A stretch of DNA of 33,174 bases. Source: a virus. The DNA is taken from IMG/VR virus record IMGVR_UViG_3300044450_000017; one strand, written 5' to 3'. The notes under the pieces were generated by a model. That model made no database searches and was not told where the DNA came from. It saw nothing but the letters and a program-made list of their open reading frames with translations. The translations under genes and the position numbers were made by a program. Of this stretch, positions 1-33,174 are shown in pieces. Every line of letters begins with the position of its first letter. Positions within the stretch are counted from its first letter, which is position 1.

Positions 1-127
1 GTACTGGTGTAGGCGCTACCGGTACTGGAGTTGGAGCCGTTGGCACAGGAGTAGGCGCAACCGGTACAGGCGTTGGTGCAACAGGCACCGGTACAGGCGT
101 TGGTGCAACAGGCACCGGTACAGGCGT
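1..127. repeat. Terminal direct repeat identical to 33048..33174. This is an assembly overlap indicating a circular or circularly permuted genome with a unique length of 33047 bp.
   Basis: Base-by-base comparison of the two window ends gives an exact 127/127 match. The interrupted ORF stays in frame across the join. Confidence 0.95.
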
Positions 128-442
128 AGGTGCAACCGGTACTGGAACTGGAGTAGGTGCTACTGGTACTGGTACTGGTGTAGGCGCTACCGGAACCGGC
201 GTTGGCGCTACTGGTACAGGTGTAGGCGCGGTTGGCACAGGTGTAGGTGCTACAGGTACAGGTACAGGTACAGGAACTGGCACAGGATTTGGCGTTGGCG
301 TAGGTGCAGGTACCGGAGTTGGCGCCGTTGGTACTGGAGCAGGTACAGGTGTTGGCGTAGGTGTTGTAGGTACTGGGCTAGGTATAGGCGCCGGTACTGG
401 TGTTGGCGTTGGTGCTACCGGCACTGGTGTAGGTGCGACTGG
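1..442 (-). repeat. GC-rich degenerate tandem repeats encoding Pro/Thr/Val/Ala linker 1 of the tail-tip protein. The linker is about 149 aa when joined to 33043..33047.
   Basis: Minus-strand codons read ...[20 protein letters not shown]...[16 protein letters not shown].... The 27-nt unit cgttggtgcaacaggcaccggtacagg is exactly tandem at 71..97 and 98..124. The region is much more GC-rich than its surroundings. Confidence 0.9.
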
Positions 443-2800
443 GCAACCAACTCCTACTGAACCTGTGTAGGTTATAGAATTTAAGTCCGCGCCAGTAGTC
501 CAATCATTTAAATCGCCTACATTGTAAGCATAAAAACTTTGACCATTCCAGCTTATAGAACTAGCCGTGCTAGGGTTACCGCTTGTATTTGGTAATACGC
601 TTGTTGTTCTAATCCACATATCCAGGTTCTCATAAAAAGTATCTGGGCAACCTCTAACTATGTAATAATTGTATGTATCTACAACGGTTGGGTATGAAAT
701 TTGACTACTATTAAATAATGTATCAACGTCCGTTGATTGGTCGCCAATGTGAGAATTAAAACTATATATGTTTTGTTTTACATTATATTCTAATGTATCA
801 ATAACTAATAGTTTGCTTTCTGTAAAAGTATTAAAGTCAATATACAACCTATCGAAAAGTTGTATTGGAAATTGAGAATCTACTTTCTTTAAACTACCCT
901 CATAACGTTGCATTTTAAGCCTGTTATCGTTTATGCGTTGTTGAGCAGTTAAATCTTCAATAAATCTAGGAAATGTATCGCCGTTTCTTAAAAATTTAGT
1001 TATATAACCTTTAAACTGTGAATCAATAGGCGCCATATAGCCCTTTTGAAAACGGTTAAATGTGCTACCCTGGTAAATATCTTTATATTCTAATTTATTA
1101 GTTAGCTTTTTACTTGTTGTTTGTGAGTTGCTAGTTTGTAAATTTTCTGTATTAAAAGACAATGTTTCGATTTCAGAATCTGGCGCATCTAAATAAAATA
1201 ATGTTTCCCAATTCATTTGCACCCCACTAATAAACATAGCAACGTGCGTGCCTCCAGCTTGTATTATAGGCTTACTAAATTCAAATTTAATATCATACGG
1301 TAAATAATTTTCGCTTACACTGGGGCAGTTGTAAGTAATTTGTTTGTTATAAGTAAGCCATTCGCCGCGTCCGCTATAAATATAAAAGTTTACAAAAGAC
1401 GAATTTACCCAAAGGTTGTCTGTTTGATTATAATAAAACGTTTGGTAATTTCCTGTGTATGCTCCATTTAAGTATTCCCTAAATCTTACGGTAATTCTAA
1501 ACGGTATAGCATACTTTGCTATTGTGCCTTGAAAACCACCGTTTTGCATTTGCGTTTCAAAACTAAAATTAAATTTAGTCGTATCTTCTTCGCTGCTTTG
1601 CGCTTTAATTAAAAAAGTGTTAGAAAGTACAAACTCAAAACTTGTAACCGTACCTGTTATTTTTGCAGACTTATAGCCTTTTATTGCATTGGTTTCTAAA
1701 CTTACAAAATTACTATCGTATTCCCAATCTGTAAAATCGTCCTCAAAATTACCGTTAGGAATATAATTAAGTTGCTTATCTAAACTGACTGTATTTAAAA
1801 CTTCAATGACACCACCGCTAGTTTCTTTTAAAAGGTCATCGCCAATAGGCAAAGCATCGTTTGGTATGAATACAATTTGACCTAGTACATTGTTGCCCGC
1901 TAAAATACCTAAATAATTATAGCGTTTGTATAATATAGACGCAGGGTCTGTAATGTCGGCATTATTAATTATAACCCAACTAGCTTGCGCTTGAAATATA
2001 CGGCAGTTAAAACCTGTTAAAATTGAAGTTAAAACCTGCGACGTATTAAATTTATAAGTGTTTTGGTCGCTATAACTGCTACTATTTATAATAACGTCCT
2101 CAAATACATTAGTTATTGCAGCAGCGTTTTCTTCTTTTATGTTTGTTTTTACATAAATATCTGCTTCAAAACCTGTTTCATTTAAAGACTTGTGTAAACA
2201 TTCCCAAAGCGTAACCTCGTTATTAGGCGCAATAGGGAACTCAATTCCCTTTAGTAACCCTAAACCATCTACTGCCTTAAAAGATACGTTAAAAGGCGCC
2301 GCAGATAACCTCTGCTGGTATGTGTCCTGTATTAAAAAACCTTGCCAAAATATTTTATAATTTTCTATAATGTTACCGCCTTCCCAAACGCCACTATTAG
2401 CGTCCCAAACAATATTTGTATTTTGCCATTCGTCGGCAGGGTTGTAACCTTGGCCTAATAAATTCCAAGTTTGACTTGCAGCCTCCCAATTTTCGCTTTG
2501 GTCTTCCCAATATGGAACTCGTGTTTCTGAATAATACAACTTAACTAAAAACTCGCGTTCGTCAAAATCGTAAAATTCGTCGTAGGTAACAGAATCAGTT
2601 TGTATTAAATTAATCTCGCAGTTGGAAGCTATAATAGGGTCGTAAAAATCATTGTCTTGTTCCCATTTTATAGAAATAGGCGAACCAGTACCTATTAAAG
2701 GGTAAATAAAACCGTTATAGTTTTTTTGTAAAATATCCAAACGCCTTTTATTCCCTTCCGTATCGGAAAAATCCAAACGGTATTTCGTTCCGTATGCCAT
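1..2800 (-). CDS. Large tail-tip / receptor-binding protein, N-terminal 933 codons. The ORF runs off the window start and continues in frame at 33047..32344, giving 1167 aa in total.
   Basis: The ATG at 2798-2800 lies 3 nt after the tape-measure stop. I checked every codon of this frame from 2800 down to 1 and found no tta/cta/tca. After removing the 127-nt overlap the frame equals that of ORF 32344..33162. It is absent from the ORF track because it has no in-window stop. The N-terminus [30 protein letters not shown] is typical of tail proteins encoded just after a tape measure. Confidence 0.85.
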
Positions 2801-2803
2801 AAC

Positions 2804-5086
2804 TTATTTTATTCTTGACCTTGTTTTGTCTGCTCTTTGCAATGCAACTACTAAATCTTGCCCTCTTACTACAAATTCTCCGCTTACGTTTACATTACCG
2901 CTTGCGCCTTGGTCGCCTATTATGTTTTTAAGTTTATTAAGTGGCGCTATAACCTCTGGATTGCTTTTTGCACCAGGATATTCGCCTACTAAACCCATTG
3001 TAGGGCCGCTAACAATACCACCATTAGCAAAGGCTGCAAAACCACCGCTTTGTACTTTTGTTGCTAAACCAGTTAATACAGTACCTAATACTATTGCCGC
3101 AACTCCAGCGGCAGCGCCTATTCCTGGTATTGCAAATGTTTTTGCTAAAGCAGAAGCTGCAACCGCAGCCTCTCCCATTTGTTTTAACAACCCACCTAAA
3201 GCGCCTAATATTGCTCCGGATAAAGCACCCATTAAATTTTTACCGTCCACTATTGCGGTAGCTAATGCCTGGCCCATTGTTGTCGCTATTGAGCCAAAAT
3301 TAACTTCAAAAGCCATTTTTAAATTATCTGTGCTTTTTGCTATCTCGTTAAATGTTTCAGCTACTGGTTGCGCTATTGGTAATTGCGCTATGCCTAACAT
3401 TTCTGTTTTTAATTTAGCTACTTTAGGCGTTAAATCTTGTATTGCTTTTGTCGTTTCTTTTATAGCAGGTTTTTGATTTGGCGCTAATAAAGACAAGCCT
3501 TGTTGTTGAAAGTTTGATGCGCCGCCTGGTAATTGTGGGCCAGTAGGTGCTACTCCAGGCATTGCACTTGCACCACGTTTAGCATTTTTTAAAGACTGTG
3601 CGCTGGCTTCTGCTACGCCTAAAGATACTGCAACACCGGCAGCACCTCCGCTCATAAAACCACTTAATGCAGCTTTAGCTTGTTCAAATGTAGATAATGA
3701 AGGCGCAATTTTATCAGCAGCAGTAACAAATGCAGCCCCTAAACCTACTATTGCAGTGCCAAACAAAACAACTGGGTTAGCTAGCATTGTTATATTTAAA
3801 CTCTTTACGCCTGTAATAAGTTTACCAATAACGGCGCTACTGGCAACCGTAGAAATAGCGCCAGATAAAACTCCAAATGCCGTTATCATATTTCCAATAA
3901 CAACAAGCGCTGGCCCTAGTACAGTAATTATACCGCCTAAAATTATTATAGCTTTTTTAGCCTCTGGGCTTAAAGATTGAAAGCCTTTAAATAAATTCAT
4001 TAAGGCATTGGCAGCAGATTTTATATAAGGCAAAAATGTACTTAATAATTCGCCACCTAATTCAGTAAAAGCAACCCTTAATTCGTTTAAACTTTTTTGC
4101 AATTTAAAAGACGCGCTTTCAGACGTAGCTTCGAACGCTTTGGCAGTTGCGCCTTGCGTTTTTGTCATATTATCAAAAATCTGCCTAGTAGTTTCTACGT
4201 TAGCACCTAGTAAATCCATTACCCCAGATAAAGCCCTAACATTACCAAACACTCTTTGCGCAGCAGTATCGTTGCCTTCAAAATTCGATTTTAAGACTTC
4301 TAGTGTAGCCAGCAAACCATCTTCTTTTAAAGACCTTCTTAACTCGGCGCTAGATAAACCCATTTCAGATAATGCAGCTTCGGCGTCTGTTGTTGGCTTT
4401 AACAAACTAGCAAATATACCTCTAACTTGCGTTGCGGCTTCGGCAGCGTTTGTACCAGTTCTTGATAGCGCAGCAAATGCAGCACCAACCTCGCCAAAAG
4501 TAACTCCCATATTAGAAGCAATAGGTAAAACCCTTCCCATAGATGCAGCTAATTCGTCAGCCTCTAGCTTACCTTCACGAACCGCAGAAACCATTACGTC
4601 TGTTGCGTCAGTTGCACTTAATACTTGCGAGCCATAAGCGTTCATTGCAGACGTTGCTAAATCAGCTACTATTTTAGTTTCTCCTAAACCTACCGCAGAA
4701 GCCTTTAAAGAAGCGTTTAAAACGTCCATAGCTTCGCTGCCACGTAAACCAGCAGATGTTATAAAGAATAAAGCCTCTGCCGCGTCGTTAGCACTAACGC
4801 CTGTATCTGCTGCCATTTTTTTAGCAGCTTCCCCCATTTTATCAACTTCTGCGCTTGCAACACCTACTAATGATTTTATTTTAGTCATAGACTTGTCAAA
4901 GTCTACGCCCATTTTTATAGCAGCGCCCCCAGCTAAAGCAAGTGGCAATGATAATTTTGAAAGGCTTGTGCCTACGCCAGTTACTTTTTTACCAAAAGAT
5001 TTTAGTTTGCTGCTCGCGGTATTTAATGAAGCGCTTAACCTAGAAGCGTCCCCAGTTAGTAATACCTTTAATTCATTAGCTGCCAT
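2804..5086 (-). CDS. Tail tape measure protein (760 aa)
   Basis: It is the longest Ala/Gly-rich ORF and lies directly downstream of the G/GT chaperone pair. It has a TP901-type core motif (ADLATSAMNAYGS), central hydrophobic segments and a C-terminal GGIVSGPTMGLVGEYPG...EVIAPL motif. Confidence 0.9.
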   Translation of the reverse strand: MAANELKVLLTGDASRLSASLNTASSKLKSFGKKVTGVGTSLSKLSLPLALAGGAAIKMGVDFDKSMTKIKSLVGVASAEVDKMGEAAKKMAADTGVSANDAAEALFFITSAGLRGSEAMDVLNASLKASAVGLGETKIVADLATSAMNAYGSQVLSATDATDVMVSAVREGKLEADELAASMGRVLPIASNMGVTFGEVGAAFAALSRTGTNAAEAATQVRGIFASLLKPTTDAEAALSEMGLSSAELRRSLKEDGLLATLEVLKSNFEGNDTAAQRVFGNVRALSGVMDLLGANVETTRQIFDNMTKTQGATAKAFEATSESASFKLQKSLNELRVAFTELGGELLSTFLPYIKSAANALMNLFKGFQSLSPEAKKAIIILGGIITVLGPALVVIGNMITAFGVLSGAISTVASSAVIGKLITGVKSLNITMLANPVVLFGTAIVGLGAAFVTAADKIAPSLSTFEQAKAALSGFMSGGAAGVAVSLGVAEASAQSLKNAKRGASAMPGVAPTGPQLPGGASNFQQQGLSLLAPNQKPAIKETTKAIQDLTPKVAKLKTEMLGIAQLPIAQPVAETFNEIAKSTDNLKMAFEVNFGSIATTMGQALATAIVDGKNLMGALSGAILGALGGLLKQMGEAAVAASALAKTFAIPGIGAAAGVAAIVLGTVLTGLATKVQSGGFAAFANGGIVSGPTMGLVGEYPGAKSNPEVIAPLNKLKNIIGDQGASGNVNVSGEFVVRGQDLVVALQRADKTRSRIK

Positions 5087-5899: not shown

Positions 5900-6310
5900 C
5901 TATACGTTAGTAGACTTCACTATTGGGCCAGTAATGGTAATTGAACCACTATAAGATACTGGGCTTTCCATTTCAGCAGATTGCTCAATGCTAGAAATAA
6001 AACCTTCTGCGGTATAAATAGAATCGCCGCTTTCAGTTGTTCCAAAAATTGCAGTTATTTGCGTTCTGTTTATAATGTAATCTGCTAATTCGATTGCATT
6101 TGCAGTATCGCTATAATCTACTAAACCTTCAAAAGAAATTTCGCCACTTCTTACGCCAGAAATTACCTCTTGCCACCCTGCGCTATCTTTAGTAGTCGCT
6201 TCTGGTAGGTCGTGTGAAATTGTAAGAGTACACGACGTAGTGTGTCCTACTGTTACGTCCTCTACTTTAAGTAAAAGGTTAGTTCCGTTAAATACTCCTG
6301 TTGTTGCCAT
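5900..6310 (-). CDS. Major tail (tube) protein (136 aa)
   Basis: Size and position upstream of G/GT and the tape measure. The pattern is TP901-1/phi13-like (NGTNLLLKV...GHTTSCTLTISHDLPEATTKDSAGWQE...GEISFEGL). It is flanked by a promoter-like motif and a terminator. Confidence 0.8.
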   Translation of the reverse strand: MATTGVFNGTNLLLKVEDVTVGHTTSCTLTISHDLPEATTKDSAGWQEVISGVRSGEISFEGLVDYSDTANAIELADYIINRTQITAIFGTTESGDSIYTAEGFISSIEQSAEMESPVSYSGSITITGPIVKSTNV

Positions 6311-6448: not shown

Positions 6449-9154
6449 TTAGAACTGGTTAGCAAATGCCATATAGATATAGGTACTTGAAGTATTATTA
6501 AATCCTGTTGAAGTACTGTTAAAAGAAAAACCATTCGGCGTAAAATTTACAATAGCAGGGTCGTTTACAAATTCTTCACTTGATAAATTTGCATAAACTC
6601 TTTTGTCAGAACCTCTTTTATTATCAAGCATTTGCCAATCTCCTGTACCTCCTGTTACTCTTTTAATCATTACAAACGCAGGTTCAAAACCACAGTTTTG
6701 CTCATTAGGTATTGCTGCCCCACTGTAACTACCAAACTTACTAAATCCTGCAACCTCTGCGAAACAGTAGGCTATTGTTTCTGTATTTGCGTCAAAAGAA
6801 GTGTTAGACGTACCTCCAATTAAGCTACTTGTCATACCACTTCCCCACCACTTAAAGCTACCATTTTCAGCATTAGTATTAAATTGAAGCATATATCTAC
6901 CATTTCCACCGCTTGATAAATCTTTGTGATAAATAAACCAGTTAAAAATGTCTGTGCTTTTTGTAATTACCATAGCTGGCTCTGTGTTTAATCCGTGTCC
7001 AGCAGTAAAGTCTCCACTTGATGGAACTGTAAACTTAACAATACTAAACCCAGCAGCAGGATTTGCACTAACAACAGAAGGAATACTACCGTTACTGTTT
7101 ATAGCAGGTATTTCTGCTCCTTTCCAGTTCCAAGCAACTATGCCATTTCCATTACCGTTTGCTGAAGTTGTAGTACCTAAACTAAATCCATCTGCATCAA
7201 AAGATGTTATATGATTTGTTGTAGTATCTTCTGCATCTGTAAGACTTGAATAAAGTAGTTTAGTATTGCCTCTTACTGAATCAATTAAATTGTGGTGCTG
7301 AACGGCATCTCTATTTTTAATCCAAACAAAATCTGGTTGGAATCCAACCCCTGTAATTGAACGAGCAGTTGCATTCCCTGTATAAGTAACAGTATTAAAA
7401 CTATCTTCTAAAGTAGGTTCTACTGCGGTAGGGTCAGCAGCAAATGCCATATAGATGAAAGTGTCTCCGCTACTATTTAAACCTCCAGATGTGTTTGTTA
7501 ATTCAAATCCATTTTCTAAAAATGTTACTGGTCCATAAGCACGCTCTGCATCTGAAAGGTTAGGAGCTAAAACTAAATCAGCAACATTATTCGTAGCTCT
7601 TTTGTTGTCAAATATTGACCAATCAGAAACATTACTTGACCTTTTTATAATAACCATTGCAGGCTCAAATCCTGTTACAACAACATTTCCACTTGCTACT
7701 CCTGTACCAACATACGAACCAAAGTTAGAGAAACCTTCTACTGAATGGAAGGCATAACATATATATTCGTTATTTAAAACATTAAGAGTACTTGCTCCGC
7801 CTGTATAAAATATACTTGAATTAGGTAATGGTCTGCCTGAATCTGCTTTTGCATCAGTTTTGTTTAAATAAAGAAAATCTTGAGAGCCGTCAATAATGTC
7901 TGTATAAAAATACCAATCTAAAGGACTTGTTCTATTTTTTATAATAACAATTTCTGGAGGCAAGTTTAATCCGTGTCCAATTTCTCTTTGCGAATCTCCA
8001 CTTGTATAATCTCCCGTATAACTAACAATACTAAACCCTGCCTCTGTATTAGCAGATACTTGAGATGTTATTGTTCCATCTGTGTTTGTTACTGCTGCAC
8101 CTCCTGCTTTAAAGTTCCAAGCTACGTAGTTTTGACCGCTTTCATTTGTTCCGTTAGACACACCAAGAGAAAAACCATCAGAATCAAAAGAAGTTACATT
8201 TGTATTAGTGACTTCAGCAGATGTTTCATTACTTGAAATCATTTTATTTACCCCTCTAACAGAATCTCTTAATTGATTACCACTTATGCCTGTTCTTTCC
8301 TTTATCCAAACTAAGTCGGGTTGGAAATCAACTGAACCTACTTGGTTTAATAAAGGTGTAGATTGTGTGCCTCCATTTCCCTCATAAGTAATCGTACTAA
8401 AATGCTGACTTGGCACAATAGTAGGTGTACAATATTCTTCTGTATATAATGCTTCTACTTCGTATGGTCTTAATGCTCTGTTGAATATTCTTACTTGGTC
8501 TATTGAGCCATCTGAATAAGCAGGAGTATCAATTCTTGAAATACCTATTGTATGATTATCTATAACAGAAGGATAATCAATCCAAGATGTATTTGATGCA
8601 GTTCCAGTATTTTCATAAGTTCCTAATAATTTAGAGCCATTAACATATATTTCTTTATCTGTGTCTGTAACTTGCACTAAGATATGAACCCAATTAGTCG
8701 TTGGAGTTATATCTGCTTTATAAATTGACCTATTAGCTGTAGAACCGTCTGTAACATTTATTCTTATAAAACTTAAATCATTAAACCAACCTAATTGAAA
8801 ATAATGAAGTGCACTTGAATCATCACTTGCTCCATAAGGGAAAATCCTACTTGTTAAAGTGTTTGGTTTTATCCAAGTACTTATTGATTTTATAATATTA
8901 GATTTATTAAAAGGACTACCGCTTGGTAAAGTAATTCTACTACTCCCATCAAAAACCCCTGCTTGACCAAATACACCTGTACCATAAGTAACATTCGTAG
9001 CAGTACCATTATAGTTTCCACTAACATCAGTAGCATCTCCATTTAATTGATATAAAGCTAAACCACCACCATCGGGAAATGGGTTGTATAAATCTACTGT
9101 ATTAGTACAAGCACCGCCTCCTGCATCATTTGATTTGATTAATCTATTATTCAT
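6449..9154 (-). CDS. Large tail fibre / receptor-binding protein (901 aa) with an N-terminal ConA/LamG-like domain and a 2 x 3 array of ~100-aa repeats
   Basis: The N-terminal part has a Laminin_G_3-like pattern (GQAGVFDGSSRITLP...ISTWIKPN...DQVRIFNRAL). The rest contains six modules with the recurring pattern Y.G.G...GF(Q/E)P(D/A).V.IK.R....W...D..R...F...GF.L....Y(I/V)..AF. Confidence 0.7.
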   Translation of the reverse strand: MNNRLIKSNDAGGGACTNTVDLYNPFPDGGGLALYQLNGDATDVSGNYNGTATNVTYGTGVFGQAGVFDGSSRITLPSGSPFNKSNIIKSISTWIKPNTLTSRIFPYGASDDSSALHYFQLGWFNDLSFIRINVTDGSTANRSIYKADITPTTNWVHILVQVTDTDKEIYVNGSKLLGTYENTGTASNTSWIDYPSVIDNHTIGISRIDTPAYSDGSIDQVRIFNRALRPYEVEALYTEEYCTPTIVPSQHFSTITYEGNGGTQSTPLLNQVGSVDFQPDLVWIKERTGISGNQLRDSVRGVNKMISSNETSAEVTNTNVTSFDSDGFSLGVSNGTNESGQNYVAWNFKAGGAAVTNTDGTITSQVSANTEAGFSIVSYTGDYTSGDSQREIGHGLNLPPEIVIIKNRTSPLDWYFYTDIIDGSQDFLYLNKTDAKADSGRPLPNSSIFYTGGASTLNVLNNEYICYAFHSVEGFSNFGSYVGTGVASGNVVVTGFEPAMVIIKRSSNVSDWSIFDNKRATNNVADLVLAPNLSDAERAYGPVTFLENGFELTNTSGGLNSSGDTFIYMAFAADPTAVEPTLEDSFNTVTYTGNATARSITGVGFQPDFVWIKNRDAVQHHNLIDSVRGNTKLLYSSLTDAEDTTTNHITSFDADGFSLGTTTSANGNGNGIVAWNWKGAEIPAINSNGSIPSVVSANPAAGFSIVKFTVPSSGDFTAGHGLNTEPAMVITKSTDIFNWFIYHKDLSSGGNGRYMLQFNTNAENGSFKWWGSGMTSSLIGGTSNTSFDANTETIAYCFAEVAGFSKFGSYSGAAIPNEQNCGFEPAFVMIKRVTGGTGDWQMLDNKRGSDKRVYANLSSEEFVNDPAIVNFTPNGFSFNSTSTGFNNTSSTYIYMAFANQF

Positions 9155-30039: not shown

Positions 30040-30207
30040 TTAAACTTCTATTTCTATACCTAACTCCCTAAGCGCCCTAATATCTGAAATAGTTAGCCTA
30101 GTCGGTTCGTCTAATTTGCTCTTTAGCGTTGGCATCGTGCAACCTAAATGCGCGCATACATCGCGTTTTAATAGCTTCTTTTCTTTTAACTGTTGTCGTA
30201 TATCCAT
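30040..30207 (-). CDS. Small HTH DNA-binding protein (55 aa), first gene after the late terminator; not in the ORF track
   Basis: ATG at 30205-30207 and TAA at 30040-30042. Translation is MDIRQQLKEKKLLKRDVCAHLGCTMPTLKSKLDEPTRLTISDIRALRELGIEIEV. Confidence 0.55.
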   Translation of the reverse strand: MDIRQQLKEKKLLKRDVCAHLGCTMPTLKSKLDEPTRLTISDIRALRELGIEIEV

Positions 30208-30223
30208 TTGTAAATAATTTCTA

Positions 30224-30231
30224 CAAAAATA
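30224..30231 (-). promoter_or_regulatory. Canonical -7 box TATTTTTG, 16 nt upstream of the HTH gene ATG (candidate early promoter)
   Basis: The minus strand reads TTTTATTTTTGTAGAAATTATTTACAAATG, located directly after the strong terminator. Confidence 0.4.
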
Positions 30232-30265
30232 AAAATTATCTTTTAATTAAAAAAATATTTTACAT

Positions 30266-30300
30266 AAAAAAAGGGGCAGCAATCCGAAAATTACTACCCC
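30266..30300 (-). terminator. Strong rho-independent terminator ending the late operon
   Basis: Minus-strand RNA is GGGGUAGUAAUU-UUCG-GAUUGCUGCCCC (12 bp including three G-U, with a UUCG tetraloop) followed by U7. Confidence 0.7.
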
Positions 30301-30325
30301 TAGCAAAGAAACAAAAAAGGGAATC

Positions 30326-31156
30326 TTAAAAATTATATGTTTCTAACCATTCTTTTGCAGCTTTATAAAATTCATTATCTGGAAATTTGCTAACATCTAT
30401 TTGGCCCATATTTCTTTTGTCAAAAATAGGGTCGCAACTGTAATGCGCAATATGGTGCCAGCTTTCTAAATTGTTTACGTTTGGATAATAGCAGTTGTGC
30501 GTATCGACCATTTTAATTTTATTGTTGTGGCACGCAATATTTAAACCGTACATCGCTTGCCACCAACTATGATTGTTTCCGTTTTGTTCTGTTCCTATTT
30601 TAATACTCGTTTCAATTATTTCGTTTATAATCTTTTTAAGCGTTTTAACGCGCGCTATTACATTAAATCCGCCGTTCATATAATTATAATCGTCGTGTTT
30701 TAAATACTTCTTTATAATGCCGCTATTTGCGCTTGTCGGCTTTGTTATATGCAAATGCCAATCATTATAAATAGCGTCTGCAACCACTTCGTCAAATTTA
30801 GGAATATATCCATCGTACTTTTTTAAATGTACTAAATCAGCGTCTATAATTTCAACAACTTCATCGTCTGGCAAATCTTGTATTATTTCTCTAGCGGCGG
30901 TAAATACATTTGTAGGAATATAAATATCTCGCTGCAAATCGTACATATCCAAAATGCTATCTACCATTTTGTAAGGCAGTTTTAAATTCCAATCTACATC
31001 GTCTTGTATAGGCTCCTGCTTATTATTGCGTTTTACTATTGGTATAATCGCTTTGTTCTTAGCGTCGTTGCCATATACTTTCAAATGTTGGTATTGAAAA
31101 AAACTAATTTGTCGCCTAAAATATTCGTTGGCTACTGCGCAAGGTATTGAAATCAT
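30326..31156 (-). CDS. GT-A-like putative glycosyltransferase (276 aa)
   Basis: N-terminal MISIPCAVANEYF resembles the first strand-helix of GT-A folds, and VVEIIDADLVHL provides a DxD motif near residue 105. It has an ATGA overlap with the dioxygenase gene. The family is not identified. Confidence 0.3.
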   Translation of the reverse strand: MISIPCAVANEYFRRQISFFQYQHLKVYGNDAKNKAIIPIVKRNNKQEPIQDDVDWNLKLPYKMVDSILDMYDLQRDIYIPTNVFTAAREIIQDLPDDEVVEIIDADLVHLKKYDGYIPKFDEVVADAIYNDWHLHITKPTSANSGIIKKYLKHDDYNYMNGGFNVIARVKTLKKIINEIIETSIKIGTEQNGNNHSWWQAMYGLNIACHNNKIKMVDTHNCYYPNVNNLESWHHIAHYSCDPIFDKRNMGQIDVSKFPDNEFYKAAKEWLETYNF

Positions 31157-32331
31157 ATCAGCTTATAATGAACGTAAAAATTATTAAAACTTTCTCCTTG
31201 GAACGGTTCGGTTCTGCCGTGTTCGCATATAGCGCTTTCGTATAAAATCATTTCGCCTGGTTCTGCATATACTTTATGCCATTCTCCGTTATGGTCTTGT
31301 ATATCTAGCGGCCAATCTTCGCCAAATTCTTTATGCGAACAACCGCAACGCAAATCTTTATCTACTATTATAATGCTGCTAATATGGTGCGTTTCTACCC
31401 TATCGACGTGCTTTATTAAAGTGGCGCCTTTTTTATAAGACCTTATGCCATATATAAAAGTTGGCTCAATTTTTTGACCGCAAAACTTTTCGTGTATAGG
31501 CTGCAATTGCTTGTGTATTAATGACCTTATGCTAGTCAAATGCTCAAACGAATATATATCGCTGCCGCCGCCTATTATTACGTTTTCTTTACCCTCAAAA
31601 ACTTCTTCTGTTTTTTTGTTTTTTAAAATCTCGTATGCGTCTTTTATTATGGCCCAGGTTTCTGCTGGAACCTTTACGACCTTAAAACCTTTTTCTGTTA
31701 ATTTTGGTATTTGTTCTTTGCTAGTGTACACTTTTGGTTTATTTAATTTTTCAAATAAATTAGCGTCTTCGGCGCCATTCCAATCGTTTTCGCGCCACCA
31801 AGAAGTTATTATATATTTAATTCCTTTTGTTATTGTGGTACCTTCGTGCATTGTTTCTGGCTGCGGTTCGCCGTCAATTGTGTTTTCCCAAACTACCGCC
31901 TTACCTAATTCTGGCTTTATTATTTTTCCCAATTTAGGAAAACTAGTGCCGCCACCATCGAAATCGTCGTTTAAATAAATCATAAACGTAAATGTACGGT
32001 TGCCACTAGACAGGCAATGTTTGTCGTAAGCATCGCCACTAAAATAGTCGTTATGCTCTTTAAAGAATTGCCCTACTTCGTATTTTTGACCTTGTAAATC
32101 TTCTCCCTTTTTAATATCCAAACCTAAATTGTCGGCTATTTTTTGGTGTATAGATTTTACGGTTGGGTCATTAGGCGCCAAATTAGAAGTGCTGGAAGTT
32201 CGTGTTTCTGAAATACCGCTTCTGTCTGTTCCGCCAACTACAACGCTAGAACGTACGTTGTTGGCCTCAATCATTTCGACTAAAGCCTGGCACTCATTTT
32301 TGCTAAGAAATCCATTTATTTCTTTTACCAT
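31153..32331 (-). CDS. Fused double 2OG-Fe(II) dioxygenase (392 aa): an N-terminal prolyl-4-hydroxylase-like domain plus a second HxD...H dioxygenase domain
   Basis: Domain 1 has FLSKNECQALV, RTSSTSNL, EDLQGQKYEVGQFFKEHNDYF (HxD), NRTFTFMIYLNDDFDGGGTSFP, GKAVVWEN, MHEGTTITKGIK (His, with Lys at +10) and ITSWWRE. Domain 2 has YGIRSYKKGATLIKHVDRVETHH (HxD), EPGEMILYES and CEHGR. Confidence 0.8.
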   Translation of the reverse strand: MVKEINGFLSKNECQALVEMIEANNVRSSVVVGGTDRSGISETRTSSTSNLAPNDPTVKSIHQKIADNLGLDIKKGEDLQGQKYEVGQFFKEHNDYFSGDAYDKHCLSSGNRTFTFMIYLNDDFDGGGTSFPKLGKIIKPELGKAVVWENTIDGEPQPETMHEGTTITKGIKYIITSWWRENDWNGAEDANLFEKLNKPKVYTSKEQIPKLTEKGFKVVKVPAETWAIIKDAYEILKNKKTEEVFEGKENVIIGGGSDIYSFEHLTSIRSLIHKQLQPIHEKFCGQKIEPTFIYGIRSYKKGATLIKHVDRVETHHISSIIIVDKDLRCGCSHKEFGEDWPLDIQDHNGEWHKVYAEPGEMILYESAICEHGRTEPFQGESFNNFYVHYKLI

Positions 32332-32343
32332 AACATATTTATT

Positions 32344-33174
32344 TTAGCAAGCGTTTCTTTGCGCTACTACAATACCGCCGTTACTTATTTGAACTTGATA
32401 AGTTGCTGCAAAATCTGACGTTGTACCAACTCCATACCATTTAAAGTCTCCATCAAATGGATTAGTACCGTTAGAATCTACAAACCATCTGCCGTCTAAT
32501 TTAGTCGCTTGTGTTTCAAAATCGCCTTCATAATAAGCAGTAAATGCTAAAAACTCAAAACATTGGTTATCTGTTGTTGAACCGTTTGTTTCACTAGCCG
32601 TTATTCCCCCTTGCGTTACCAAAACTGGCGGTGTAGGTGTAGGTGTAGGCGTAGGTGCAACTGGAACCGGTGTTGGCGCAGTAGGAACTGGCGTAGGCGT
32701 AGGGGTTGGCGCAACTGGTACTGGCGTCGGAGCAACCGGAACAGGTGTCGGCGCTACTGGTACCGGTGTCGGAGCAACTGGTACTGGCGTAGGTACTGGA
32801 CCTTCACATTCACTACAACCGTTATTTAATGGGTAACCTGTTACGTCAATAGAATTTTCGTCCCCTGCATTTGCGTCGTATTGTGCTTTAGTTGCGCCAT
32901 TTTCAGCATAGTAACAAGAACCAAATATACTAATTGAAGTCGCCGCTTCTTTATTAGCACTAACTATATATGTAGACGTTGTTCTTACAACCCTATCAAT
33001 AGACGCTGCGCATCTGTTCATAAAGTAATAGTTGTAAGGGTCTACTGGTACTGGTGTAGGCGCTACCGGTACTGGAGTTGGAGCCGTTGGCACAGGAGTA
33101 GGCGCAACCGGTACAGGCGTTGGTGCAACAGGCACCGGTACAGGCGTTGGTGCAACAGGCACCGGTACAGGCGT
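32344..33174 (-). CDS. C-terminal part of the wrap-around 1167-aa tail-tip protein. The unique part is 32344..33047; 33048..33174 duplicates 1..127.
   Basis: Stop TAA at 32344-32346. The GTG start given by the track is an artefact of the window edge, because the frame is continuous with 1..2800 across the circular join. Confidence 0.85.
   Translation of the reverse strand, partial: TPVPVPVAPTPVPVPVAPTPVPVAPTPVPTAPTPVPVAPTPVPVDPYNYYFMNRCAASIDRVVRTTSTYIVSANKEAATSISIFGSCYYAENGATKAQYDANAGDENSIDVTGYPLNNGCSECEGPVPTPVPVAPTPVPVAPTPVPVAPTPVPVAPTPTPTPVPTAPTPVPVAPTPTPTPTPPVLVTQGGITASETNGSTTDNQCFEFLAFTAYYEGDFETQATKLDGRWFVDSNGTNPFDGDFKWYGVGTTSDFAATYQVQISNGGIVVAQRNAC
32626..32799 (-). repeat. Degenerate tandem repeats encoding Pro/Thr/Val/Ala linker 2 (58 aa)
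   Basis: Translation is [59 protein letters not shown]. The segment is GC-rich within an AT-rich genome. Confidence 0.9.
33048..33174. repeat. Terminal direct repeat, identical to 1..127
   Basis: Exact 127/127 match with the window start. Confidence 0.95.

What the first reader, a model, noticed from the sequence alone, without database searches (positions are those of the whole stretch)
1..2800. A 1167-aa beads-on-a-string tail-tip protein is invisible to the ORF track because it spans the window junction
Seen:
- 2.8 kb at the window start has no listed ORF. Even so, the minus frame starting at the ATG at 2800 is open all the way to base 1. I checked it codon by codon.
- It joins in frame to 33047..32344.
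- The architecture is a 786-aa N-terminal tail domain, then linker 1 (149 aa of P/T/V/A), an 81-aa module, linker 2 (58 aa) and a 93-aa C-terminal module.
- The roughly 85 residues before linker 1 ([12 protein letters not shown]...RTTS...SSIS...[10 protein letters not shown]...GC) are paralogous to the inter-linker module (VDPYNYYFMNRC...RTTS...TSIS...DENSIDVTG...GC).
- Each module is bracketed by Cys residues, and the last residue of the protein is Cys.

Inference: these are small disulfide-stabilised binding modules displayed on extended linkers, like CBMs on the PT linkers of secreted glycoside hydrolases. They probably act as the host-recognition end of the tail. No separate Dit/Tal pair is present.
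Basis: partly seen in the sequence, partly recalled or inferred. Interest (0 to 1): 0.65.

Follow-up and report, generated by a model that had tools for sequence, protein, structure and literature searches.

The report
Phage tail protein with glycosylation enzymes
The junction-spanning 1167-residue phage tail protein is real, and its proline-rich linkers sit directly beside a phage prolyl hydroxylase and a hydroxyproline-type sugar transferase, which gives these abundant but unexplained viral enzymes a candidate substrate.

Summary
The contig ends share an exact 127-nt overlap, so the circle is 33,047 bp. The minus-strand ORF 2800..1 + 33047..32344 encodes 1167 aa, and independent contigs carry the same gene unbroken.

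It is the virion protein encoded directly after the tape-measure gene. It has a conserved ~704-aa core that includes a CBM-like beta-sandwich. It is distantly related to an MS/MS-verified Cellulophaga phage virion protein. The C-terminus is lineage-specific: three small Cys-bracketed modules on X-Pro linkers (94 Pro in 207 aa, X = V/T/A).

They share the operon, which ends in a terminator. One is a collagen-type prolyl 4-hydroxylase fused to a second oxygenase-like domain. The other is a GT-A glycosyltransferase whose only Pfam match is the plant hydroxyproline O-arabinosyltransferase family.

Relatives that lack the Pro linkers lack exactly these two genes. In other viral contigs the pair again neighbours Pro-linker virion proteins of unrelated families. 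In some contigs a Skp1-hydroxyproline-GlcNAc-transferase-like enzyme replaces the GT.

Best reading (about 0.6): the linkers are hydroxylated and O-glycosylated, giving stiff, protease-resistant stalks that display adhesin modules. No chemistry was tested.

The parts
1..2800 (-). 5' part of the tail gene: codons 1-933 plus the first base of codon 934. The start ATG at 2800 lies 3 nt after the tape-measure stop.
32344..33047 (-). 3' part of the tail gene: the rest of codon 934 to codon 1167, plus the stop at 32344-32346.
33048..33174 (.). Exact duplicate of bases 1-127. This is an assembler k-mer overlap marking a circular or permuted 33,047-bp genome.
689..2800 (-). Conserved core of the tail protein (residues 1 to ~704), shared at 71-86% identity with type A and type B relatives and at 23-28% with 640-790-aa family members.
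1166..1738 (-). CBM-like beta-sandwich inside the core (residues ~355-545, begins NGNFEDDF).
443..688 (-). Module M1 (residues ~705-786, Cys718...Cys786). It is the first element of the lineage-specific block.
1..442 (-). Linker 1, first part (residues 787-934). It continues at 33043-33047. X-Pro repeats with X = V/T/A.
32800..33042 (-). Module M2 (residues 936-1016), a paralogue of M1.
32626..32799 (-). Linker 2 (residues 1017-1074), X-Pro repeats.
32347..32625 (-). Module M3 (residues 1075-1167, Cys1096...Cys1167). It is a rare module that is nearly always C-terminal and is shuffled among proteins.
31153..32331 (-). 392-aa two-domain oxygenase. Residues 1-190 are a collagen-type prolyl 4-hydroxylase (H93-x-D95, H162, K172). 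Residues ~205-392 are a second domain with an invariant HxD...H motif. The gene starts 12 nt after the tail gene stop.
30326..31156 (-). 276-aa GT-A glycosyltransferase of the HPAT (hydroxyproline O-arabinosyltransferase) family, with an invariant D104-x-D106. Its start overlaps the oxygenase stop by 4 nt.
30272..30301 (-). Intrinsic terminator (13-bp stem plus T-run) 25 nt after the GT stop. It marks the end of the late structural operon.
2804..5086 (-). Tape-measure protein gene immediately upstream (context).

Best explanation
Shown: the 1167-aa protein is the distal-tail or tail-tip structural protein of a ~33-kb siphovirus, probably of a marine Bacteroidota host. A conserved ~704-aa core containing a CBM-like beta-sandwich anchors it at the end of the tail, next to the tape-measure protein. 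A horizontally exchanged 3.4-kb block supplies everything downstream of the core. That block encodes three small Cys-bracketed modules (M1, M2, M3) on two X-Pro linkers (149 and 58 aa), plus two enzymes co-transcribed as the last genes of the late operon.

Inferred mechanism: during virion assembly in the cytoplasm, the prolyl 4-hydroxylase converts linker prolines in V/T/A-Pro repeats to 4-hydroxyproline. This step needs O2, Fe(II) and 2-oxoglutarate. The HPAT-like GT-A transferase then adds a sugar to the Hyp hydroxyl. The second oxygenase-like domain may add a further hydroxylation. The result would be an extended, stiff, protease-resistant glycosylated polyproline-II stalk, analogous to plant extensin/AGP glycomodules or the O-glycosylated PT linkers of cellulases. 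The stalk would hold out the modules, and the terminal M3 in particular is expected to contact the host surface.

Status of each step: gene, architecture, genomic linkage and enzyme family assignments are shown. Hydroxylation, glycosylation, sugar identity, disulfides and the binding role of the modules are inferred.
For: Gene and location:
- The ORF and the junction are confirmed.
- The gene lies directly after the TMP.
- The homologue gp59 of Cellulophaga phage phi18:1 occupies the same position and is an MS/MS-verified virion protein.
- Foldseek against BFVD gives E 1e-45 to 1e-23 to ~650-950-aa phage structural proteins.

Enzymes:
- The N-terminal domain of the 392-aa protein matches solved P4Hs: B. 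anthracis 4e-23, human C-P4H 2e-19, Chlamydomonas 4e-14, PBCV-1 3e-13.
- Its Fe/2OG ligands H93, D95, H162 and K172 are conserved in at least 59 of 61 relatives.
- The GT model has pLDDT 95.9 and a GT-A fold. It has an invariant DxD.
- HPAT is the GT's only Pfam hit and is above the gathering score. 16 of 35 relatives hit HPAT, best E 5e-13, and no other GT family matches.

Operon:
- The gap between tail gene and oxygenase is 12 nt, oxygenase and GT overlap by 4 nt, and a terminator follows the GT.

Co-variation:
- Homology to type B relatives, which have no Pro linkers, stops at tail residue ~704 and resumes exactly at the end of the GT gene.
- Every type A locus long enough to show the downstream genes has them: window, L001, L002 and L005-L007, where L002 (5.5 kb) ends after the oxygenase gene and L001's GT is cut by the contig end. 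Type B loci lack both.
- Within the tail-protein family, 3 loci have linkers, GT and oxygenase together and 41 have none of the three.

Generality:
- In 81 IMG/VR loci found through the GT alone, 45 of 65 loci with an oxygenase have a Pro-linker ORF within 5 kb on the same strand. The figure is 0 of 16 for loci without an oxygenase.
- 25% of same-strand ORFs of 150 aa or more within 2.5 kb of the GT carry Pro linkers, against 0-2% beyond 5 kb.
- 12 of the 25 GT clusters at 70% identity show the association.
- The neighbouring Pro-linker proteins belong to different virion families: phrog_14478, phrog_38559, phrog_8780/18179 and the window family.

Convergence:
- In loci found only through a (PT)7 DNA pattern, Pro-linker tail proteins lie next to a P4H plus a different GT, Pfam PF11397 (E 3e-35). 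This is the GlcNAc-transferase family of Skp1 hydroxyproline GlcNAc-transferase Gnt1.
- In L185 and L194 that GT accompanies the same two-domain oxygenase fusion as in the window.

Substrate fit:
- The linkers contain 94 Pro in 207 aa. All but one are non-contiguous and preceded by V, T or A.
Against: - No chemical evidence exists for Hyp or glycan on any phage protein here.
- Most phage Pro-linker proteins have no such enzymes nearby. Of 93 loci with a PT-linker ORF, 9 have a P4H and 0 have the HPAT-like GT. The modification is therefore not required for PT linkers in general.
- 20 of 65 oxygenase+GT loci show no Pro-linker ORF within the fetched flanks. In large genomes (L031-L036) the pair sits among replication genes.
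- Within the window's own family the co-variation looks like a single gain event, so physical linkage alone could produce it.
- The window protein's HPAT match is marginal (25.2 bits against a cut-off of 23.9) and covers only profile positions 129-250.
- The nearest solved structures are GT6 enzymes at TM ~0.5, not a Hyp transferase.
- The second oxygenase domain has no significant Pfam or PDB match.
- For the best-studied viral P4H (PBCV-1), Hyp was not detected in virions (PMC7019647).
- GT60 enzymes can also target Thr (PMC6939170).
Confidence: 0.6

Rival explanations
1. The tail protein is as described, but its linkers stay unmodified. The hydroxylase and glycosyltransferase are hitch-hiking auxiliary or 'moron' genes that act on host targets or other substrates. 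They sit next to tail-fibre genes only because that region tolerates insertions and recombines as a block.
For: - Most Pro-linker phage proteins lack these enzymes.
- In large genomes the pair lies among replication genes with no Pro-linker ORF within 10 kb.
- The co-variation within the family is compatible with one recombination event.
- The literature treats viral P4H as an AMG of unknown role (PMC9301287).
Against: - Three independent matches of enzyme specificity to substrate chemistry are seen: P4H, an HPAT-like GT or a Gnt1-like GT, and X-Pro repeats.
- The association recurs with at least four unrelated virion protein families and two unrelated GT families.
- Pro-linker ORF density falls sharply with distance from the GT.
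- No locus with the GT but without an oxygenase has a Pro-linker ORF within 5 kb (0 of 16).
- The enzymes are the last genes of the late operon, translationally coupled and followed by a terminator.
Confidence: 0.2
2. The linkers are glycosylated, but on threonine, as in cellulase PT linkers, mycobacteriophage virion proteins or T. cruzi GT60 enzymes. The oxygenase domains have a separate role.
For: - The linkers contain 37 Thr.
- GT60 includes Thr-directed enzymes (PMC6939170).
- A relative (P0231) joins the same modules with poly-Thr linkers.
- Some Gnt1-like loci show no P4H in the fetched flank.
Against: - The GT is almost always paired and translationally coupled with a P4H-type oxygenase.
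- Its only Pfam affinity is to a Hyp-specific family.
- Much of linker 1 in the window is V-P/A-P with little Thr.
Confidence: 0.12
3. The junction-spanning ORF is an assembly artefact. Two different Pro-linker genes would have been falsely joined through a shared 127-mer.
For: The overlap lies inside repetitive linker DNA.
Against: - At least six independent contigs carry the continuous gene with the same flanks on both sides.
- L005 aligns co-linearly across the junction for 6.5 kb.
Confidence: 0.02

Closest known systems
Cellulophaga phage phi18:1 gp59 and phi12:1 'structural protein' (virion proteins encoded after the tape-measure gene)
   Same: - The gene position is the same, directly after the TMP.
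- The N-terminal region is homologous (tblastn 23% identity over 312 aa, E 5e-6; Foldseek E 2.6e-32).
- Virion membership of the phi18:1 protein is verified by MS/MS.
   Different: - The phi18:1-type record shows no Pro-linker or bead C-terminus and no hydroxylase or GT genes downstream.
- In phi18:1, further tail genes follow gp59.
Plant and green-algal hydroxyproline-rich glycoprotein pathway (P4H, then HPAT/GT95 acting on extensins, AGP-type X-Pro glycomodules and CLE peptides)
   Same: - Both pair a P4H-type enzyme with an HPAT-family GT.
- The substrate consists of non-contiguous (A/T/V/S)-Pro repeats.
- The predicted outcome is an extended glycosylated polyproline-II rod.
   Different: - The phage GT is soluble, with no N-terminal membrane anchor in the model, and would act in a bacterial cytoplasm rather than the Golgi.
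- It is only distantly related to HPAT.
- The donor sugar is unknown.
- There is no biochemical evidence.
Skp1 prolyl hydroxylation and glycosylation in Dictyostelium and Toxoplasma (PhyA, then Gnt1/GT60)
   Same: - It is a cytoplasmic pathway running from P4H to a Hyp-specific GT.
- A Gnt1-family GT (PF11397) replaces the HPAT-like GT next to the same oxygenase fusion in loci L185 and L194 (PMC6939170).
   Different: - Skp1 carries one regulatory Pro in a folded protein. Here there are about 94 Pro in repetitive structural linkers.
- The window itself carries the HPAT-like GT, not the Gnt1-like one.
Viral prolyl 4-hydroxylase of chlorovirus PBCV-1 (PDB 5c5t)
   Same: - It is a homologous catalytic domain (E 3e-13).
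- It is virus-encoded.
- It acts on Pro-rich repeat peptides in vitro (PMC7019647).
   Different: - It comes from a eukaryotic virus.
- Its natural substrate is unknown, and Hyp was not found in virions.
- It has no adjacent Hyp-GT or in-cis candidate substrate.
Mycobacteriophage virion glycosylation by phage-encoded glycosyltransferases (from my own knowledge, Freeman et al. 2023; only cited indirectly by papers listed)
   Same: - Phage-encoded GTs modify virion structural proteins on C-terminal low-complexity extensions.
   Different: - The glycosylation there is on Ser/Thr of capsid and tail-tube proteins.
- There is no hydroxylase step.
- The GT families are different.
PT-linker plus CBM architecture of secreted glycoside hydrolases
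   Same: - Small binding modules are spaced by Pro/Thr-rich extended linkers that are often O-glycosylated and protease-protective.
- A genuine CBM-like fold is present in the core.
   Different: - The small modules M1-M3 have no detectable CBM homology.
- The protein is a virion component, not a secreted enzyme.
- The linkers are V/A/T-Pro, with dedicated hydroxylase and GT genes.

Membership tests
Post-TMP virion structural protein family (Cellulophaga phi18:1 gp59-like) | Gene lies immediately downstream of the tape-measure gene. | tested here: met
   TMP is at 2804-5086 and the tail gene starts at 2800. gp59 follows gp58 TMP in phi18:1.
Post-TMP virion structural protein family (Cellulophaga phi18:1 gp59-like) | Sequence and fold homology of the ~700-aa core. 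| tested here: met
   tblastn E 5e-6. Foldseek BFVD E 1e-45 to 1e-23, including phi12:1 structural protein. 179 related viral loci were found.
Post-TMP virion structural protein family (Cellulophaga phi18:1 gp59-like) | Physical presence in the virion. | not testable with these tools
   Only the distant homologue has MS/MS evidence.
Distal tail protein (Dit) / Tal hub | Match to Dit or Tal families or folds (Sipho_tail, Prophage_tail, gp27-like hub). | tested here: inconclusive
   No Pfam or PHROG Dit/Tal hit for the protein or for 27 relatives. Only weak lambda tail-tip matches appear, at probability 0.2-0.3.
Collagen-type prolyl 4-hydroxylase (P4Hc / PF13640) | Sequence membership above threshold. 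| tested here: met
   PF13640 at 59 bits against GA 27. PDB P4Hs match at E 4e-23 to 3e-13.
Collagen-type prolyl 4-hydroxylase (P4Hc / PF13640) | His-x-Asp...His iron triad and the 2OG-binding Lys. | tested here: met
   H93, D95, H162 and K172 align with the B. anthracis P4H motif and are conserved in at least 59 of 61 relatives.
Collagen-type prolyl 4-hydroxylase (P4Hc / PF13640) | Peptidyl-proline 4-hydroxylation activity. | not testable with these tools
   Needs an enzyme assay or mass spectrometry.
2OG-Fe(II) oxygenase superfamily (C-terminal domain, residues ~205-392) | Significant profile or fold match, plus the HxD...H motif. | tested here: inconclusive
   The HxD...H(xR) motif is invariant, and the cyanophage S-SCSM1 '2OG-Fe(II) oxygenase' matches at E 3e-25. 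However, no Pfam or PDB hit is significant, and hhalign against the P4H domain aligns only the HxD motif at E 0.22.
HPAT / GT95 hydroxyproline O-arabinosyltransferase | Pfam PF23452 match above the gathering score. | tested here: met
   25.2 bits against GA 23.9, which is marginal. 16 of 35 relatives hit it, best E 5e-13, and no competing GT family appears.
HPAT / GT95 hydroxyproline O-arabinosyltransferase | GT-A fold with a DxD metal and nucleotide-sugar motif. | tested here: met
   The model has pLDDT 95.9. Foldseek finds GT-A enzymes (GT6) at E 1e-7. D104-x-D106 is invariant.
HPAT / GT95 hydroxyproline O-arabinosyltransferase | Hyp acceptor and UDP-L-arabinofuranose donor. | not testable with these tools
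   No solved HPAT structure or sequence motif was available for specificity.
HPAT / GT95 hydroxyproline O-arabinosyltransferase | Type II membrane (Golgi) topology. | tested here: not met
   The model starts with a beta-strand at residues 2-7 and has no N-terminal hydrophobic helix. It is therefore a soluble, distant relative rather than a canonical HPAT.
   No Pfam hit. M3 hits only phrog_21885, of unknown function. AlphaFold pLDDT is below 50 for residues 686-1167.

The most novel reading that the evidence does not exclude
Many marine phages may carry a dedicated, extensin/AGP-like hydroxyproline O-glycosylation pathway for their own tail proteins. It would consist of a prolyl 4-hydroxylase, often fused to a second oxygenase, plus a Hyp-directed glycosyltransferase. 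That transferase is HPAT-like or, by non-orthologous displacement, Gnt1-like. On this reading the abundant viral P4H / 2OG-oxygenase 'auxiliary metabolic genes' would be virion-maturation enzymes, and tail maturation and infectivity would depend on O2, Fe(II) and 2-oxoglutarate in the infected cell.
Probability: 0.45. Interest if true: 0.85.

Novelty: new variant of a known kind. Interest (0 to 1): 0.7.

Why it matters
- Viral prolyl 4-hydroxylase and 2OG-Fe(II) oxygenase genes are among the most abundant 'auxiliary' genes in marine viromes, and their role is explicitly described as cryptic (PMC9301287).
- Even for the biochemically characterised PBCV-1 enzyme, no natural substrate is known (PMC7019647).
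- This locus offers a concrete candidate substrate encoded in cis, plus a partner Hyp-type glycosyltransferase. The pattern recurs across unrelated tail proteins and across two GT families.
- The question becomes directly testable by co-expressing three genes and running mass spectrometry.
- If confirmed, it would add a new type of post-translational modification to phage virions. It would reclassify a large group of 'AMGs' as structural maturation enzymes.
- It would also link phage infectivity to oxygen and iron availability, and provide soluble bacterial-type enzymes for making Hyp-glycosylated linkers.

Tried and rejected
- Pfam and PHROG scans of the 786-aa N-terminal part and of M1 and M2 gave nothing.
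- The AlphaFold full-length model failed for residues 686-1167, so the CBM/lectin idea for M1-M3 could not be tested.
- The GT has no match in 50,697 isolate phage genomes and no PDB sequence relative, even with a profile.
- For the C-terminal oxygenase domain, Pfam, PDB phmmer, a PDB profile search and hhalign against the P4H domain were all non-significant. The 'ferrochelatase' label of phrog_2954/3531 and of cyanophage records looks like a propagated misannotation, but this could not be settled.
- The assembly-artefact reading was rejected.
- Dit/Tal membership could not be shown.
- The reverse test shows that PT linkers are far more widespread in phages than these enzymes. The idea that the enzymes are needed for every PT linker is rejected.
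- Literature searches for phage Hyp glycosylation, for HPAT in phages and for a phage-encoded prolyl hydroxylase acting on tails found no prior description in the held library.
- The PF11397-like GT of L149 has no PDB sequence match. The link between that Pfam family and Skp1 Gnt1 rests on my memory of the Pfam description, plus PMC6939170 for Gnt1 biochemistry.
Full report
**Observation**

The minus frame starting at the ATG at 2800 is open down to base 1. The window ends share an exact 127-nt overlap: bases 1-127 equal 33048-33174. Removing one copy gives a 33,047-bp circle. In that circle the frame continues through 33047..32347 to a stop at 32344-32346, giving one 1167-aa product of 128.6 kDa. 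The ORF lister omits ORFs that run off the ends, which is why the region looked empty.

The Cys pattern is also reproduced (718/786; 946/978/1011/1014; 1096/1167). M1 and M2 are paralogous, with BLASTP E 4e-10.

The join is real. Relatives of 1087-1165 aa are continuous ORFs on independent contigs. Contig L005 aligns co-linearly across the junction for 6.5 kb at 83.7% identity. Because the overlap lies in repetitive linker DNA, the exact linker length here is uncertain. The nearly identical strain has 1173 aa and a different V/T pattern.

**What the protein is**

All genes lie on the minus strand. The order is major head protein, adaptor, head closure, neck and tail terminator proteins, several unknown genes, a 901-aa LamG/DUF7483 protein, the tail tube, a chaperone-like protein, the tape-measure protein (2804-5086), and then this gene 3 nt later.

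Residues 1-312 are distantly similar to 'structural proteins' of Cellulophaga and Salinibacter siphoviruses. In Cellulophaga phage phi18:1 the homologue gp59 also follows the TMP and is annotated as an MS/MS-verified virion protein.

AlphaFold modelled residues 1-93, 147-320, 355-545 and 580-685 with confidence. Everything after residue 686 had pLDDT below 50. The central domain is a CBM16/22/28/4-type beta-sandwich (E 3e-6). The whole core matches ~650-950-aa phage proteins in BFVD at E 1e-45 to 1e-23.

No Dit or Tal family is detected in this protein or anywhere else in the module. Only low-probability lambda tail-tip matches appear.

Most family members are 640-790 aa long, so the core is the ancestral protein and the C-terminus is an add-on. 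Type B relatives keep the core at 71-79% identity but carry different Cys-bracketed repeats plus a DUF285/BspA-like domain.

M3 is rare: 25 clusters among 1.84 billion representatives. It is almost always C-terminal, it is shuffled among proteins of 110-3332 aa, and it keeps a conserved Cys pair. All of this fits a host-recognition end, but the fold and ligand of M1-M3 remain unknown.

Twelve nucleotides after the tail gene stop begins a 392-aa gene (31153-32331). Its stop overlaps by 4 nt the start of a 276-aa gene (30326-31156). A strong intrinsic terminator follows 25 nt later, at 30301-30272. The two genes are therefore the last cistrons of the late structural operon.

The N-terminal half of the 392-aa protein is a collagen-type prolyl 4-hydroxylase:
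- PF13640 scores 59 bits.
- Solved P4Hs match: B. anthracis 4e-23, human C-P4H 2e-19, Chlamydomonas 4e-14, PBCV-1 3e-13.
- H93-x-D95, H162 and K172 are conserved in at least 59 of 61 relatives.

Its C-terminal half has an invariant HxD...H motif. It matches cyanophage genes annotated either '2OG-Fe(II) oxygenase' or 'ferrochelatase', the latter dubious. It has no significant Pfam or PDB match.

The 276-aa protein folds with pLDDT 95.9 into a GT-A glycosyltransferase. It has an invariant DxD. Its only Pfam affinity is the hydroxyproline O-arabinosyltransferase family: 25.2 bits against a cut-off of 23.9 for the window protein, 16 of 35 relatives hitting, and a best E of 5e-13. It has no counterpart in 50,697 isolate phage genomes.

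**Linkage of enzymes and linkers**

DNA homology between the window and type B genomes stops at window 689 (tail residue ~704). It resumes at 30327, exactly the end of the GT gene. The type-A-specific 3.4-kb block is therefore M1, linker, M2, linker, M3, oxygenase and GT.

Every type A locus that extends far enough carries the downstream genes; L002 ends after the oxygenase gene and L001's GT is cut by the contig end. Type B loci lack both and go straight to the next conserved genes. In the tail-protein family as a whole, 3 loci have linkers, GT and oxygenase together and 41 have none of the three. On its own this could reflect a single event.

Independent replication comes from 80 IMG/VR loci retrieved through the GT alone, at 35-98% identity; the counts below also include the window itself:
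- 45 of 65 loci with an oxygenase have a Pro-linker ORF within 5 kb on the same strand. A Pro-linker ORF was defined as at least 30% Pro and at least 90% P/T/S/V/A/I/G over 30 aa. The figure is 0 of 16 for loci without an oxygenase.
- The fraction of neighbouring ORFs with such linkers falls from 25% within 2.5 kb to 0-2% beyond 5 kb.
- At 70% GT identity, 12 clusters show the association, 7 have an oxygenase but no linker ORF in range, 6 have neither, and none has linkers without an oxygenase.
- The linker proteins belong to different virion families: phrog_14478, phrog_38559, phrog_8780/18179 and the window family.

A reverse search for (PT)7-coding DNA returned 120 loci, 93 of them with a Pro-linker ORF. 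Only 9 of those have a P4H and none has the HPAT-like GT, so most phage PT linkers lack these enzymes.

That reverse set nevertheless revealed two further arrangements:
- Tail fibre, P4H, radical SAM/SPASM, PF11397 'Glycosyltransferase (GlcNAc)' (E 3e-35) and an epimerase. In L185 and L194 this uses the same two-domain oxygenase fusion as the window.
- Tail fibre, P4H, an NDP-sugar epimerase/dehydratase and two unknown proteins.

From my knowledge, PF11397 is the family of Gnt1, the Skp1 hydroxyproline GlcNAc-transferase. Its Hyp specificity is described in PMC6939170. Two unrelated GT families whose characterised members glycosylate hydroxyproline therefore each sit beside a P4H and a Pro-linker tail protein.

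**Mechanism proposed**

The linkers contain 94 Pro in 207 residues. Only one Pro-Pro dipeptide occurs, and nearly every Pro is preceded by V, T or A. From established plant glycobiology, recalled from memory, this is the non-contiguous X-Pro pattern of AGP-type glycomodules.

I propose the following sequence:
1. The P4H hydroxylates these prolines in the cytoplasm late in infection.
2. The GT glycosylates the Hyp.
3. The resulting stiff, protease-resistant stalks display M2 and M3 beyond the tail tip. The core's CBM-like domain and M1 lie closer in.

Gene structure, family assignments and genomic association are shown. The chemistry, the sugar, the disulfides and the binding role are inferred. 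I put this reading at about 0.6.

**Rivals**

- The enzymes are hitch-hiking auxiliary genes with other targets (0.2).
- The glycosylation is on Thr, and the oxygenases do something else (0.12).
- The ORF is an assembly artefact (0.02).

The main counter-evidence to my reading is as follows:
- Most PT linkers lack the enzymes.
- A third of enzyme loci show no linker ORF nearby, and in large genomes the pair lies among replication genes.
- The window protein's HPAT score is marginal.
- The PBCV-1 precedent found no Hyp in virions.

**Comparison and novelty**

The tail protein itself is a new member of a known, poorly annotated family of post-TMP virion proteins. The enzyme-plus-linker cassette resembles four known systems:
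- the plant and algal P4H/HPAT pathway;
- the protist PhyA/Gnt1 pathway;
- the PBCV-1 viral P4H;
- phage virion glycosylation in mycobacteriophages.

It differs from each in host, topology, substrate or chemistry. Searches of the held literature found no description of Hyp glycosylation in phages. A 2022 virome paper states that the viral use of P4H 'remains cryptic'.

I rate it a new variant of a known kind, with interest 0.7. It turns a long-standing annotation puzzle into a three-gene co-expression experiment.

Noticed in passing
window 6449-9154 (-): A 901-aa Laminin_G_3 + DUF7483 protein (PHROG 'tail fiber / virion structural protein') is encoded upstream of the tail tube gene (5900-6310). 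This is an unusual position for a fibre-like gene.
   Followed up: no
window 30040-30207 (-), with an AT-rich repeat at 30228-30272: An unlisted 55-aa ORF (MDIRQQLKEKK..., HTH-like by eye) lies just after the late terminator and an AT-rich tandem repeat. A 55-aa gene is conserved at this position in L003, L005 and L008. It is probably the start of the early or regulatory module.
   Followed up: partly
P0005-P0023; L003 7411-11283; L008 4436-8395: Type B relatives keep the ~704-aa core but replace the C-terminus with several ~65-aa Cys-bracketed repeats (YY..KCSD...GCP) plus a DUF285/BspA-like repeat domain. They lack the hydroxylase and GT genes.
   Followed up: partly
L149 1752-2687; L185 763-1671; L194 484-1386: A radical SAM/SPASM gene always sits between the P4H and the Gnt1-like glycosyltransferase next to Pro-linker tail proteins. 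Its role is unknown. It could act in peptide or sugar modification.
   Followed up: no
L137 3366-6709; L153 1462-5600; L200 5947-9332: A third arrangement was seen: Pro-linker tail fibre, P4H, NDP-sugar epimerase/dehydratase, then conserved 319-aa and 245-aa proteins without Pfam hits. These two may be novel glycosyltransferases.
   Followed up: partly
P0231 (285 aa): A relative joins M2-like and M3-like modules with poly-Thr linkers (TTTSTTQPVTTT) instead of X-Pro linkers. This suggests the linker types are interchangeable.
   Followed up: no
L031-L036 (contigs of 8-122 kb); L031 13927-17503: In contigs that mostly come from larger viral genomes, the oxygenase+GT pair lies among replication-type genes, with no Pro-linker ORF in the fetched flanks (up to 10 kb). 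In L031 it is followed by five tandem ~200-aa leucine-rich-repeat-like genes.
   Followed up: partly
window 31153-31719 (-), C-terminal half of the 392-aa protein: Homologous cyanophage genes and phrog_2954/3531 are labelled 'ferrochelatase'. The invariant HxD...H motif, and the 'prolyl 4-hydroxylase' or '2OG-Fe(II) oxygenase' labels on other homologues, suggest a propagated misannotation.
   Followed up: partly
window 2804-5086 (-) compared with L001, L003, L005, L006, L008: Tape-measure length varies from 674 to 811 aa among close relatives (760 aa here). DNA homology drops out in its middle part, at about window 3040-4100, which implies different tail lengths.
   Followed up: no
window 1-447: Linker-coding DNA is about 60% G+C in a 36% G+C genome. 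It forms imperfect tandem repeats of period 21/27/42, a likely hotspot for length variation and for assembly breaks.
   Followed up: partly
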